Positions 1,823-63,354 of a DNA stretch of 64,000 bases are shown here, piece after piece. The notes beneath the pieces are model-generated. The model was not told the origin of the DNA and ran no database searches. It saw only the letters and a list, made by a program, of their open reading frames with translations. Every line of letters starts with the position of its first letter. Positions within the stretch are counted from its first letter, which is position 1. The position numbers were made by a program, and so were the translations under genes. The stretch spans positions 132,990,001 through 133,054,000 of the forward strand of contig OX597815.1 of NCBI GenBank assembly GCA_951406725.2. Reading direction: 5' to 3'. Source of the stretch: Octopus vulgaris. Lineage: Eukaryota.

Positions 1823-3849
1823 ATTCATTTATTCATGCGCTCACTATCATTGCGTGAATAAGTGGGTGAAGGAATGAGAAAATAAAGAGGTAAATATAAT
1901 AGTGTATAACTGTTGTGTATGAGTTTATTCATGAATGTATGTGTCTGCATTTAAATGTATGGGTACGCATGTGTGTGTGTGTGTCTTTGTAAGTACGAGT
2001 ACATTTGAATGTGCAGGTGTTTTACTTATTGTATGAGAGAAGTAGTGTGTGTGATGAGCGGGTGATGAGCGTGTGGGTAGCGGGGCTGACTAAGAATAAT
2101 TAATGGAATGGAGGGTGGAAATGAATGGAAAATGTAAGGTTGCTTTATAAAATGTTAAATATATAATGAAAGGTGAAAAAAAATGAACCTGCAGAAAAAA
2201 AATTCCTCTAAAGAAAACTTGAATATGGTAAAAGGTCATGAAAATGGTATTACATATAAAAAAAGAAAAATTAGCGGAGAAGAACAAATTAGATGCTCTA
2301 AAATGATGAACAGAAAAAAAAAATATCAGGGTGTAAAAAAATATCAGTGGAAAATATATAGAGTTCGAAAATAATAGAAACCTTACAAAAGATTCCTTCA
2401 GGGTTCGATATAATCATCATATAAAGAATGATTCTGTAATTTATTCAGTGTAAACCTACTCTGGAAACATAATGATGTCTAAATGAAAGAAGACAATATC
2501 AGCATCATCACCATCATCATCATCACCTCTATGAGCAACCGCAGATACAATATTCGTTCTATGGTTATAATTTGATATCTTCTGAACTGAATACTTAATG
2601 ACGTTTGATGTAGTTATTATTTTAACTGTTTTTATTGTTTCAGTGGCTGTTTTAAGGGGAGGGATGTCTTTCCAAACTCTAAACAAAATAAAAAGCATAT
2701 GATGAACGATCGTAGAAGTCTCTCTACTTGAATGAGATGATAAAAGCGAAAGTTATATGAGAAACAGGAAACTCACATTAGAATGAAATATAATCTAATT
2801 TACCAGCGTAAATAATTAAATCCCATTTTAAGAATAATATATTTGCCACGATTTAATTACTAAGAATATTTATTTTAACAATTTTCTTTTGTTAAAATTT
2901 AACACTTTTTTTGTTGAATGATTACAATGAACCTTTAAAGAGAAGAATCAATAATAAAATTTAAAAAAAAAACAATGAAATACTTTAAGTGCAGATATAG
3001 AGTAAACCTCTTCACAACCTTTGATTTTGTCATAATGTACCGAATTAAAAATTATTGATGAGATTAATTAGATGCTTTTAGCAATAATTCGTTCACGACA
3101 TAATAACAAAAGCTTATCTGGGAAGCATCAATGGGATCAGTTTAAAATTGTTAATTCATTTCCTTGCGAAACACTGTTCTTGCGTAATTCCGTCACCTCT
3201 TTCAATGGCGTTTCTGTTCTAGATGTGATTGTGTTCATTGAAATGTCTGCTAGCGGTCGGGTGGGGTAGTGATGGTGGCCTGGTCGATTATAGAGTTGTT
3301 GCTAAGGGGTGATGCATGCTGTTCCATAGAATTATAAATCTATATACATTATTGTTTATTTACGATGAGTAGAAATTGTCCGTCATTGCGCGTGCGAGGA
3401 GAGTTCAAAACCTTGTGGTTGTTGTGTCTTTCCTATTGGTGTTTACTATATTCTTCTCCCGACGGGAGGCCTTCAGCAGATTCTTTATCTCTTATCATTT
3501 ACTTGTTTCAGTCATGAGACGCAGCTACTGTGTCCCGTTCTGCCGGTTACAGCCTAGTATTCTCCGTTGCAGCTGTGCGTGTCACGCCTGACAGCCTTTA
3601 CGGTGTTTACCGAACACTAAGCAGCAGTCATGATTTCAGCATTTTGATACTCGGTACGAATCATCGTGATACAACTCTTTTCCAATATCCAGGTGGTTTC
3701 TAGACCTCCATGTCAGCTAACGTTTTCTCAAGTACCAGTTTAATCTTTATACTCTCCAACACCATTGACTATTAATACGTCACACTCTTTCTCCGAAGAA
3801 ACATAAAATATCGTCAAATTTAGCCCGAACATCGTATATATATATATAT

Positions 3850-3944
<95 letters not shown>

Positions 3945-3947
<3 letters not shown>

Positions 3948-4153
3948 CTTTATTGCCCACAAGGAGCTAAACATAGAGGGGACAAACAAGGACAGACTAA
4001 GGAATTAAGTCGATTATATCGACCCCAGTGCGTAACTGGTACTTAATTTATCGACCCCGAAAGGATGAAAGGTAAAGTCGACATCGGCGGAATTTGAACC
4101 AGAATGTAACGGCAGACGAAATACCGCTAAGCATTTCGCCCGGCGCGCTAACG
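3945..4153 (-). mobile_element. SINE, Meta/MESC-like family
   Basis: Reverse complement: GGTTCAAATTCCGCCGA..CCTTTCATCCTTTCGGGGTCGATAAATTAAGTACCAG, ending in a GGGCAATAAGAAA tail at (TA)n. Confidence 0.8.
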
Positions 4154-13561: not shown

Positions 13562-13598
13562 TGTTTCCGACGAAGAGCTCCGCTCGAAACGTCATACC
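13562..13598 (+). ncRNA. Minimal hammerhead-like motif (U4C) at the PLE 3' end
   Basis: GTTT-CCGACGA-A-GAGC TCC GCTC-GAAA-CG-TC-ATAC; ACGT palindrome; stem I has one mismatch. Confidence 0.65.
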
Positions 13599-13681
13599 TC
13601 CCTGCTTCCATTTCCTGAGCGCCTATTAATAATAATACTGTAATTGTTCCATTGTTGTTGTTTTTTTGTTTCCCGTTTGGA

Positions 13682-28091: not shown

Positions 28092-28166
28092 GGTCAGTTT
28101 AGCTTAAAGGTAAAGCACTGCTACGCGTAATCACAGGGATGTGAGTTCGAGTCTCATGGCTGGCCG
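28092..28166 (+). tRNA. tRNA-like sequence (possibly Thr-CGT-derived pseudogene or SINE head) within a fold-back
   Basis: Acceptor GGTCAGT/GCTGGCC, D arm TAGCTTAAAGGTAAAGC, T arm GTGAG-TTCGAGT-CTCAT; anticodon stem imperfect. Confidence 0.5.
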
Positions 28167-40861: not shown

Positions 40862-41358
40862 CATCGGCACCTTTTAATACAAGATATATCCTGCGAGACG
40901 CTTTTTTAAATTCACGTTTCGTTCATTTTTATTTCATTTCATACCATTTTATTCGTTTCTGATTAATATGAGATTTTATAATAACAATAATAGCGACGGT
41001 AGTAAGCCTTTAGCTAATATCAGTTGAATTAGTCATTAAGATTGCATCAGTTGTTGTGTATCTGCTTAGAAAGCCACTTAGCATGTTACCTGACATCTTG
41101 TTAATTATTGTATTGTGTAAGATGCAAATGAACAACTTCGACGGAGAAAATTCTTCTAAATAGCTTTGGTAGTAAATTAAGTTAAGCAAAAATAAACAAA
41201 ATTCTACAAGTGCAAGAAATGATGGTAAGAACGTACATATAATAGCATACATAATGGATTACAGTGTAAATATGATGAGAATGCGATTTTTAAGAGGTCG
41301 TATCAAAAGTATAGATTTGCCGTCTTGAATGTAACAGCTTCGTTCAGATGAAGCATAA

Positions 41359-41417
<59 letters not shown>

Positions 41418-41420
<3 letters not shown>

Positions 41421-41515
41421 AATCCCAAAAAAAAAACGAAAAACAAGAACAAACAACAACACGAAGACATGGTACATATAAAGTATTATCAGACGCACAG
41501 GGAAGGAAAGAAAGG
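41418..41515 (-). mobile_element. 3' tail of the C-rich PLE family
   Basis: Reverse complement resembles 13600-13685 (CCTG.GCG.CT..TAATACT..TGTTGTTGTTT..GGATT). Confidence 0.55.
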
Positions 41516-41733
41516 TGTTATATTTAGGAATGGTCATTTTTGCCAGTTTAGCCAATAAGAAAGAAGAAAGCAAAGGACCACTGATGCGGTCACAGGAGTG
41601 TGACGAAAGAACTCTGGCCGAAATAAGATTAAGATTAATGTAAAAAATGAATAACGCTGAAGCAAAGTAACACCAAATATATAGTGTGTGTGTTTTTATT
41701 GGTTAAACTGGCAAAATGACCATTCCTAAATAT

Positions 41734-41737
<4 letters not shown>
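41516..41737 (+). mobile_element. TGT..ACA inverted-repeat mini-element with hammerhead-like core
   Basis: ~42-bp IR TGTTATATTTAGGAATGGTCATTTTTGCCAGTTTAGCCAATAA; related to 62763-63026. Confidence 0.8.
41575..41619 (+). ncRNA. Minimal hammerhead-like motif (A9 altered)
   Basis: GGACCA-CTGATGC-G-GTCACA GGAG TGTGAC-GAAA-GAAC-TC-TGGCC. Confidence 0.55.
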
Positions 41738-41785
<48 letters not shown>

Positions 41786-60840: not shown

Positions 60841-60983
60841 TATTTGTTAAATAGGACTACAAACGCTAAGGCAAGACAAGCATCTCAAGTCATAAACGTT
60901 ATTATTACGTATATTCTAATAGTATTAATGTATATGACTTGAGATTCTTGTCTTGCCTTAGCGTTTGTTGTCTGGTTTAACAA

Positions 60984-62161: not shown

Positions 62162-62762
62162 CACGTGTGTATGTATATATATATATACATGCATATGTGT
62201 GTGTGTGCGTGTGTGTGTACGCAAATTTACATGTATATATGAGTATATATAAATCTATGGTTATGAGAAAAATAATTACGCCACACGTTTTATTGCGTAA
62301 TACTACAATTGCTTCTTCACCATTTTAGCAGCAGATCATTTCCGAAACATTGATATATAAAATATAACAAATATAAAATAAAGCATCGTGCCATTATTAT
62401 TATTCCTGTAATACAGCTAAGTTACGAATCTTCAGATCTAAGCACAAAAAGTGTTCGCTAACTCTAAGATCTATTTCACAGAATATATACCTCAAGAAGG
62501 TGCTGTTCTTTGCGTTTCACTTTCACAACCAAAAACAAAAATATAAATATAATAAAATAAATAAATAAAAATAAGTTGCTAGGTAGAATATAAAAGTTAT
62601 CATTTAACACATGTGCATACATATTTGTGTGTGTGCGTGTGTATGTGTTTGGGTGGGCGTGTATGCGTGTGTCTGTAAGAGATAGAGAGTATATAGAACG
62701 TATGCAAATATATAAATATATACACATATATATGTAGGTTTGTATGTATTATATATATATAT

Positions 62763-63026
62763 TGCTGTATTTCGGGACGGTCATTTTTTTTTTGCCAAAT
62801 AAACACACGCACTATATATTTGTTCTTCACTCGTTTATGGCTGTTCTTATTTAAACTCATGTCCATTGTCCGGAAATCTTTCGTGACACATCTGTTTCCT
62901 CTTAAGCAACACTCTTCGTTTTCGTGTGTGTTCTTGCCCCACTTACTCCGTTCTGCTCTTCAGAATGGATATAAACAAATATATAGTGCGTGTGTTTATT
63001 TTGAAAAAAAATCCCGAAATACAACA
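62763..63026 (-). mobile_element. TG..CA inverted-repeat mini-element, ATAT flanks
   Basis: IR TGCTGTATTTCGGGA..AAATAAACACACGCACTATATATTTGTT; interior homologous to 41575-41700. Confidence 0.8.
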
Positions 63027-63354
63027 ATATCTGTTTCAACACACGAGTTCACGTCAGGAATCTTGCAACGCAAATTGATAAACATATATACATATATATA
63101 GTAGAAATATGTTACGAAAAGAAAATATAAAATACACGTGGAAATGTAAGGGTAAAATATGAAAAATCAACGAAAATGCATATTGCAGTTAGAAAAAGGC
63201 TATTTATGACAGGTAGTTACAAATATATACATTTAGATTGACTGAGGTAGTAATACGAGTCATAAAGGTCATTATTATGAGATGATTATAAGATGATAAT
63301 AATAATAAAGTAAGAGAACAAAATGAACCAATTGGTTTACGCGAAGGTTAATTT

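What the first reader, a model, noticed from the sequence alone, without database searches (positions are those of the whole stretch)
41516..41737. MITE-like TGT..ACA element that contains a hammerhead-like ribozyme
Seen: a 222-bp element with ~42-bp terminal inverted repeats and an internal CTGATGC-G-GTCACA/TGTGAC-GAAA-GAAC-TC motif with CCA/TGG stem I. A related element at 62763-63026 has a homologous motif at the equivalent position. Established: TGT..ACA TIRs typify Ginger-type DNA transposons and LTR ends, while hammerheads typify PLEs and retrozymes. Inference: a possibly undescribed class of IR-bounded ribozyme mini-elements, either PLE-mobilised with an inverted end copy or integrase-mobilised. 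This is my best candidate for a new system; both copies are degenerate.
Basis: partly seen in the sequence, partly recalled or inferred. Interest (0 to 1): 0.75.

Follow-up and report, generated by a model that had tools for sequence, protein, structure and literature searches.

The report
Penelope retroelement stub, altered hammerhead
The 222-base element is the cut-short, mirror-joined end of a very abundant Penelope-type jumping gene in an octopus genome, a known pattern, but its youngest protein-coding copies carry a change in the ribozyme core that would likely cripple it, hinting that these elements can spread without a working ribozyme.

Summary
The inverted repeat and hammerhead motif are real, but this is not a MITE or a new class. 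It is the 3' end (pLTR) of a Penelope-like element (PLE) preceded by a 46-bp inverted copy. The 'TIR' includes the first seven codons of a 1,309-aa RT plus GIY-YIG ORF, intact in L129. In 19 of 20 full-length matches the element runs about 55 bp past TGT or ACA (the PLE 'tail'). This copy alone lacks it, its left end abutting another PLE-like family. Arm lengths vary from 32 bp to over 4 kb; duplications of 9-25 bp lie outside the tail; this exact junction occurs 10 times against 3,387 exact motif matches. The second copy belongs to an older sister family with a canonical core. Two points go beyond the papers read: 38 of 39 two-armed insertions have exactly one tailed and one tail-less arm, and core change A9C is a lineage trait (2,950 versus 437 exact matches) carried by the youngest, ORF-intact copies. 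Cleavage was not tested. The scan noted this architecture before on other DNA, in this genome too.

The parts
41358..41417 (.). (TA)n tract at the outer end of the neighbouring repeat
   Evidence: sequence
41418..41517 (-). 98-100 bp end piece of a different high-copy repeat (family 3). In 3 of 5 relatives inspected a hammerhead motif follows just beyond the point where this copy breaks. It abuts the left arm and stands where the expected tail and target duplication are missing; its continuation is not in the window.
   Evidence: 1,080 candidates, 85-90% identity; motif in L230, L231, L234; no continuation in window
41516..41561 (-). Inverted, 5'-truncated copy of the PLE end (element positions 115-159 from the hammerhead start); tail missing
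41554..41558 (.). AATAA microhomology at the head-to-head junction of the two arms
   Evidence: alignment of 30 loci; exact junction pattern in 10 places genome-wide
41554..41741 (+). Direct arm: 3' pLTR end of a Neptune/Nematis-type PLE (family 1), ending at site A (ACA|ATAT)
   Evidence: 93% to the autonomous copy L129, 97-98% to many truncated copies
41575..41619 (+). Minimal type I hammerhead motif: stem I 41575-41580/41615-41619 with one bulge, core 41581-41587 with C at position 9 (41587), unpaired G 41588, stem II 41589-41594/41599-41604, GAAA 41605-41608, 2-bp stem III with AA loop, predicted cut after 41614
   Evidence: activity untested
41716..41736 (+). ATG and first seven codons (MTIPKYN) of the PLE ORF; this is the outer half of the supposed TIR
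   Evidence: same position starts the 1,309-aa ORF in L129
41738..41781 (.). (AT)n target tract
   Evidence: sequence; 51 of 64 two-armed insertions have a TA tract on at least one side
62759..62961 (-). Copy 2, main arm: pLTR end of older sister family 2, ending at site A
   Evidence: PLE ORF remnants (51-70% aa identity to L129) upstream in L081, L083
62868..62912 (-). Copy 2 hammerhead motif, individually decayed (CTTAAGA, broken stem II); the family majority is canonical CTGAAGA
62974..63086 (+).

Best explanation
The element is a 5'-truncated, head-to-head insertion of an autonomous Penelope-like retrotransposon, likely made when its reverse transcriptase primed on both strands of a cut TA-rich site and the two short cDNAs joined at a 5-nt microhomology. 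Shown: identity with the pLTR and ORF start of an intact RT + GIY-YIG element; two discrete 3' end points (site A, and site B about 55 nt further, bounding the tail); one end of each kind in two-armed insertions; variable arm lengths; TA-tract targets; long duplications where readable. Inferred: one strand is primed at site A and the other at site B; the window copy later lost its left tail in a deletion that joined it to an older neighbouring repeat, leaving a TGT..ACA look-alike. The hammerhead is the ordinary pLTR ribozyme. In this lineage it acquired A9C, which is predicted to weaken or abolish cleavage, yet the lineage kept amplifying, so cleavage is likely dispensable for mobility.
For: Intact 1,312-codon open frame (1,309 aa from ATG) with YVDD, CX4CxxC linker and YVGET endonuclease between two copies of the motif, plus an inverted partial copy, in L129. 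Pfam RVT_1 E 0.0014 and GIY-YIG E 0.00035, both below curated cut-offs; 99% to an Octopus vulgaris predicted RT protein. 38 of 39 two-armed insertions among 59 non-duplicate loci are A+B, the 39th has a tail with an internal deletion, none A/A or B/B. 22 of 22 opposite-strand pairs under 5 kb in the first 100 matches are head-to-head (hand count). In 19 of 34 directly joined pairs the tail-less arm is the longer, so neither arm contains the other (hand tally). Duplications of 9-25 bp in 8 of 13 readable sites versus 3 of 156 mismatched pairs. Divergence from group majority: A9/C17 4.4% (24 copies), C9/C17 2.1% (49), C9/U17 0.3% (30). Same layout in PMC3846280 and PMC8557442; two internal RT start sites, both-strand nicking and hammerhead-independent insertion in vitro in PMC11167929.
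Against: The window copy itself breaks the one-tail rule and has no target duplication; the deletion is inferred, no empty or ancestral allele was seen. 4 of 34 junctions are exact palindromes, which fits fold-back synthesis as well. Pfam scores are under the cut-offs and the whole ORF gave no hit. The AU test does not reject one clade for the 10 copies sharing this junction (p = 0.156). The effect of A9C is not measured and no paper naming it was found; PMC11167929 shows a PLE hammerhead that cuts only with protein. The excess of changes in the motif is not significant (3 of 34 versus 10 of 148, p = 0.71).
Confidence: 0.93

Rival explanations
1. The short two-armed unit with this junction is a small non-autonomous family re-copied as a unit by the PLE enzyme.
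For: The exact junction recurs in 10 places; 7 of them share subfamily letters; monophyly is not rejected (p-AU 0.156).
Against: 10 copies against 3,387 exact motif matches. They fall into three sequence types, both arms sharing the type's letters in each copy, and the tree needs 3 changes. The junction sits on a 5-nt microhomology. No two of 34 other junctions listed share coordinates, apart from one duplicated locus.
Confidence: 0.04
2. Same element, but the inverted arm arises by fold-back (self-priming) synthesis, as Arkhipova et al. 2013 proposed for antisense templates, not by priming on both target strands.
For: 4 of 34 junctions are exact palindromes (L103, L113, L121, L138); the model is argued in PMC3846280 (passages read).
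Against: In 19 of 34 pairs the tail-less arm is longer while the other carries the tail, so a copy of one cDNA cannot give both. This rival concerns mechanism only and lies within the PLE reading.
Confidence: 0.2
3. A Ginger-type or other integrase/transposase-mobilised MITE that captured a ribozyme.
For: TGT..ACA and about 45-bp arms in this copy; an apparent ATAT 4-bp duplication in 10 of 20 full-length matches, resembling the Ginger2 RTATAY target (PMC2836005).
Against: The element continues past TGT/ACA in 19 of 20; the left ATAT is the element's own tail; the window copy has AAGG versus ATAT; the arms are the ORF start of a retroelement; arm lengths range from 32 bp to kilobases. No transposase search was run, but none of the long copies inspected held an ORF other than the PLE one in the arms.
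Confidence: 0.01
4. A non-LTR retrozyme (tandem 150-450 bp units making circular RNA).
For: Type I hammerhead, small, non-coding in this copy.
Against: No short head-to-tail units: same-strand motif repeats in the sample are 4.6 kb apart (L129, a full monomer) or a segmental duplicate (L109); one motif per arm cannot release a monomer.
Confidence: 0.02

Closest known systems
EN+ Penelope-like insertions with inverted pLTR and tail (Adineta Pen2a_Av, PMC3846280; Fig. 2 legend of PMC8557442)
   Same: Inverted 5'-truncated copy, tail on one end, pLTR including the first codons of the ORF, 8-10 bp TSD class, microhomology junctions, asparagine-rich stretch in a long ORF.
   Different: Tail about 55-60 nt rather than 30-40; the papers say the tail is 'optionally' or 'often' on one end, here it is 38 of 39; this copy lost its tail.
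Neptune / Nematis clades of PLEs (PMC8557442)
   Same: RT followed by CX2-5CxxC linker and C-terminal GIY-YIG; microsatellite targeting.
   Different: Clade not separated by a tree here; no reference sequences were available.
Minimal PLE hammerheads (Cervera and de la Pena 2014, PMC4209133)
   Same: Type I, long stem II, unpaired base before G10.1-C11.1, short stem I, minimal stem III.
   Different: Family 1 has a non-palindromic AA loop III and a lineage-wide A9C; the paper's reported core variant is U3-A8.
Anolis PAc (Frangieh et al. 2024, PMC11167929)
   Same: Two end points inside the start of the ORF bounding the tail; AT-rich targets.
   Different: Poseidon clade; there the ORF starts inside the hammerhead, here 101 nt after the predicted cut site.
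Ginger1/Ginger2 DNA transposons (PMC2836005)
   Same: TGT start and 40-50 bp inverted arms in this one copy.
   Different: Ginger has fixed termini, 4-bp TSD and a DDE transposase; none holds here.

Membership tests
EN+ Penelope-like element | Single ORF with RT and C-terminal GIY-YIG endonuclease linked to the repeat | tested here: met
   L129 ORF, motifs YVDD and YVGET, Pfam hits below cut-off; the window copy itself holds only 7 codons
EN+ Penelope-like element | Partial tandem forming pLTRs, pLTR includes ORF start | tested here: met
   L129
EN+ Penelope-like element | Inverted 5'-truncated copy and tail on one end | tested here: met
   38 of 39 two-armed insertions; tail missing in the window copy
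EN+ Penelope-like element | Variable 5' truncation, variable long TSD, AT-rich targets | tested here: met
   8 of 13 readable sites
Neptune/Nematis clade | CX2-5CxxC linker before the endonuclease | tested here: met
   CTDNYCTVC at residue 1183
Neptune/Nematis clade | RT phylogeny with named references | not tested
   no named reference sequences were fetched
Hammerhead ribozyme (minimal type I) | Core C3 U4 G5 A6 N7 G8 A9 / G12 A13 A14 A15 / U16 H17 (PMC3088659) | tested here: not met
   Window copy and family majority have C9; met by the older A9 copies and family 2
Hammerhead ribozyme (minimal type I) | Stems I-III supported by covariation | tested here: inconclusive
   Between families 1 and 2: two double-sided and one one-sided change in stem I, one one-sided in stem III, stem II invariant; only two lineages
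Hammerhead ribozyme (minimal type I) | Palindromic stem/loop III for dimer cleavage | tested here: not met
   AGAACT in family 1 leaves two A-A mismatches; AGATTT in family 2 pairs with wobbles
Hammerhead ribozyme (minimal type I) | Self-cleavage | not testable with these tools
   only assembled contigs were available
MITE / Ginger DNA transposon | Fixed TGT..ACA termini shared by copies | tested here: not met
   19 of 20 continue past them
MITE / Ginger DNA transposon | 4-bp TSD directly outside the termini | tested here: not met
   AAGG versus ATAT in the window; the ATAT match in 10 of 20 is the element's own tail
MITE / Ginger DNA transposon | Autonomous DDE partner sharing the ends | not tested
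   no transposase search run; the partner found is RT + GIY-YIG
Non-LTR retrozyme | Short tandem units each with a hammerhead (PMC7229834) | tested here: not met

The most novel reading that the evidence does not exclude
The youngest, ORF-intact lineage of this octopus PLE family has amplified to thousands of copies with a disabled hammerhead (A9C, then C17U, with a non-palindromic loop III), a natural knock-out showing that the PLE ribozyme is a passenger; and its insertions obey a strict one-tailed, one-tail-less rule, meaning that each target strand is primed at its own start site.
Probability: 0.4. Interest if true: 0.5.

Novelty: new member of a known kind. Interest (0 to 1): 0.24.

Why it matters
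As a candidate new system it is ordinary: a stub of a known class that mimics a TGT..ACA MITE, a trap for repeat annotation. The side result bears on two questions that PMC8557442 and PMC11167929 call open: what the PLE hammerhead is for, and how the inverted repeats and tail form. A family with a dated series from canonical core to A9C, still carrying intact ORFs, makes the first testable with three short RNAs. The 38-of-39 rule gives a sharp prediction for the in vitro system.

Tried and rejected
Rfam scan at E up to 5: no hammerhead among the 150 rows shown, mostly microsatellite-driven miRNA hits. Folding z-scores of the motif are not beyond shuffles, and energies do not separate A9 from C9. 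Pfam on the whole ORF gave nothing. RNA: no RNA holder listed on record and only contigs; laying four guessed-RNA or unknown runs gave no read starts, so nothing on expression or cleavage. Contigs of two runs span the left junction with 96 and 30 letters, one short of the tool's bridging rule, and may be the source data. A relaxed pattern search for sister hammerheads with other stem II letters gave 160 matches against 28 in the control, those listed being mostly single mutants of families 1 and 2 plus other families; no further lineage for covariation. A tail-anchored search (3,082 matches) showed no new family with a readable motif among 30 loci, apart from family-2-like L208 and L226. The AU test on junction copies was inconclusive. 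Luense et al. (PMC5785218) is not held, so its variant list was not seen. Searches: 'hammerhead'+'A9C'+'cleavage' 0 papers; 'octopus'+'hammerhead ribozyme' 5 and 'octopus'+'Penelope'+'Neptune' 2, none describing this family in the listing. Repbase and Dfam could not be checked, nor supplements of the papers read; the family may be there.

Full report
Observation. The 222 bases at 41516-41737 start TGT and end ACA, and the arms align at 43 of 46 columns. The motif is at 41578-41617. It folds into stems I and II, but not better than shuffles, and Rfam lists no hammerhead in the 150 of 153 rows shown. The stretch at 62763 aligns on the minus strand.

Copies. A DNA search of the own genome (2.8 Gb) gave 1,540 candidates, 40 scored. 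About half of the best places match only positions 39-222. In the 30 loci fetched, the sequence continues past TGT or ACA with a shared stretch of about 55 bases. Of the 20 full-length matches 19 continue (18 by exact test, L015 by eye); only the window copy does not. Exact 32-nt patterns count 2,950 motifs with C at core position 9 and 437 with A, controls 0. The window's exact junction occurs 10 times.

The parent. Upstream of the motif in L024 lies an endonuclease remnant (Pfam GIY-YIG E 0.012). Of 20 loci found with it, the motif-bearing end follows about 700 bases downstream in most, and RT remnants lie upstream in several. L129 holds an uninterrupted frame of 1,312 codons (1,309 aa from ATG) between two copies of the motif 4,598 bases apart, preceded by a partial tandem and an inverted partial copy, all 98-99% alike. 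The protein has YVDD, a CX4CxxC linker and a YVGET endonuclease. Pfam RVT_1 and GIY-YIG hits are below the curated cut-offs, the whole ORF gave none, and the best database hit is a 99% identical Octopus vulgaris predicted RT protein. The ORF starts at the ATG found at window 41716: the outer half of the 'TIR' is its first seven codons.

Architecture. I fetched 60 loci from the position-ordered list: L089-L128 are the first 40 insertions in order, while L129-L148 include nine chosen as pairs, so the share of two-armed insertions is inflated, but end class was not used in choosing. One duplicate (L098) was dropped. Ends cluster at site A (position 155-166 from the motif start) and site B (205-225). 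Of 59 loci, 39 are two-armed: 38 have one A and one B end, and L104 has a tail with an internal deletion; none is A/A or B/B; 20 are single-armed. Three of the two-armed cases (L091, L125, L144) are interrupted by other sequence, so their pairing is inferred. In the 20 A9 loci, 5 are A+B, 3 more have a B end with the other just outside the A bin, 1 is unclear and 11 are single. Arms run from 32 bases to over 4 kb, and junction positions differ from locus to locus. By hand tally of 34 directly joined pairs, the tail-less arm is longer in 19, the tailed arm in 11 and equal in 4. In the 19, neither arm contains the other, which simple fold-back copying cannot give. Of 64 A+B insertions from all sets, 51 touch a TA tract. 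In the 13 readable ones, 8 show a duplication of 9-25 bases (two in trinucleotide repeats), against 3 of 156 mismatched flank pairs.

Why this copy looks like a MITE. It is the only A/A case among the 29 top-hit loci. Its left neighbour, 41418-41517, is the end of another repeat with 1,080 candidates, cut a few bases before a hammerhead motif seen in 3 of 5 relatives; the rest of that repeat is not in the window. A deletion that joined the two repeats at a TG and removed the tail is the simplest account; it is inferred. An ATAT on both sides in 10 of 20 copies mimics a Ginger2 site (PMC2836005, passages), but the left ATAT is the element's own tail, and the window has AAGG there. The 10 copies with this junction fall into three sequence types matched in both arms and need 3 changes on the tree, but one clade is not rejected, so minor re-copying stays possible.

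Copy 2. It belongs to a sister family (3,222 candidates) whose majority motif is canonical and which has PLE ORF remnants upstream in L081 and L083. This copy is individually decayed and has its tail at 63027-63086.

The hammerhead. On 144 indel-free copies of 146, the A9 group and family 2 agree at 30 of 34 majority positions, including all core bases, while the spacer behind is about 53% identical between copies (motif 80% between the same copies). Stem I shows two double-sided and one one-sided change, stem III one one-sided change, and stem II is invariant. So the motif was conserved as a structure for a long time. Within family 1 the groups form a ladder: A9/C17 4.4% from their majority, C9/C17 2.1%, C9/U17 0.3% with 20 identical rows (that tree kept the trait columns, the percentages do not depend on it). 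Seven C9/U17 loci have 3 stops in about 6,700 aligned residues, against 45 in about 4,800 for eight older loci found with L024, a set biased to old copies and not all confirmed as A9. In summed contig depth of three differently labelled organisms, A9 is 15-20% at this site (no copy number). From the A9 majority to the youngest, 3 of 34 motif positions and 10 of 148 others changed, which fits relaxed constraint but is a small count. PMC3088659 (passages) treats A9 as core and says most core mutations sharply cut activity, while listing active natural variants; PMC9901934 (passages) reports low activity for changes around the CUGA turn; neither passage gives A9C, and a search for it found no paper. 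That A9 pairs with G12 is recalled, not from a call. The loss of activity is therefore a prediction.

Mechanism. Shown: sequence identity, ends, arms, targets. Inferred: the endonuclease nicks both strands about a dozen bases apart, RT starts at site A on one strand and site B on the other, and the two truncated cDNAs join at a microhomology. PMC11167929 (parts 1-2 of 4 read) shows both-strand nicking and extension, two internal start sites bounding the tail, and insertion without hammerhead cleavage in vitro, but found no strand difference in start site, which does not by itself predict the one-of-each rule. PMC3846280 (passages) prefers self-priming on an antisense template.

Comparison. PMC3846280 and PMC8557442 (passages; introduction of the latter) describe inverted pLTR, one-sided tail, ORF start inside the pLTR, TSD of 8-10 bp and microsatellite bias; PMC4209133 (parts 1-2 of 4) describes the minimal hammerheads. 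Also seen: PMC7229834, PMC6765202, PMC8969392 (passages) and bioRxiv 10.64898/2026.07.22.740005 (part 1 of 5). The family is a member of the EN+ PLEs, Neptune/Nematis type by its linker; the window motif fails the strict hammerhead core test though it descends from one. Earlier notes of this scan reached the same reading on other DNA, looked up after my reading was set.

Verdict. Real feature, known kind, not a new system. Interest 0.24, carried by the A9C lineage and the one-tail rule.

Noticed in passing
window 41418-41517 and 13562-13671: End pieces of two further hammerhead-bearing repeat families; a motif with core CCGACGA lies at 13567 on the + strand.
   Followed up: partly
window 60852-60975: A near-perfect hairpin of about 120 bases (Rfam mir-2513 model below its gathering score); may be another fold-back insertion.
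   Followed up: no
window 28093-28165: tRNA-like match above the Rfam gathering score (35.8 bits), possibly a SINE head.
   Followed up: no
window 3836-3952: 117-base match (82%) to the end of the family-1 ORF on the minus strand.
   Followed up: no
L129 3500-4250: Long asparagine/serine-rich low-complexity stretch in the N-terminal part of the intact ORF, recalling the N-rich inserts of Adineta PLEs (PMC3846280), though at another position.
   Followed up: no
L097/L098, L156/L157, L109: Segmental duplicates carrying the same insertion twice.
   Followed up: partly
listing, e.g. L176, L184, L187, L197: Other minimal hammerhead families with palindromic stem III (GAAAGCGCTH) in this genome.
   Followed up: no
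window 41614: The U17 variant is 33% of summed contig depth in run X15 but 9% and 7% in X16 and X17, hinting at a recent burst in one lineage; depth is no copy number.
   Followed up: no
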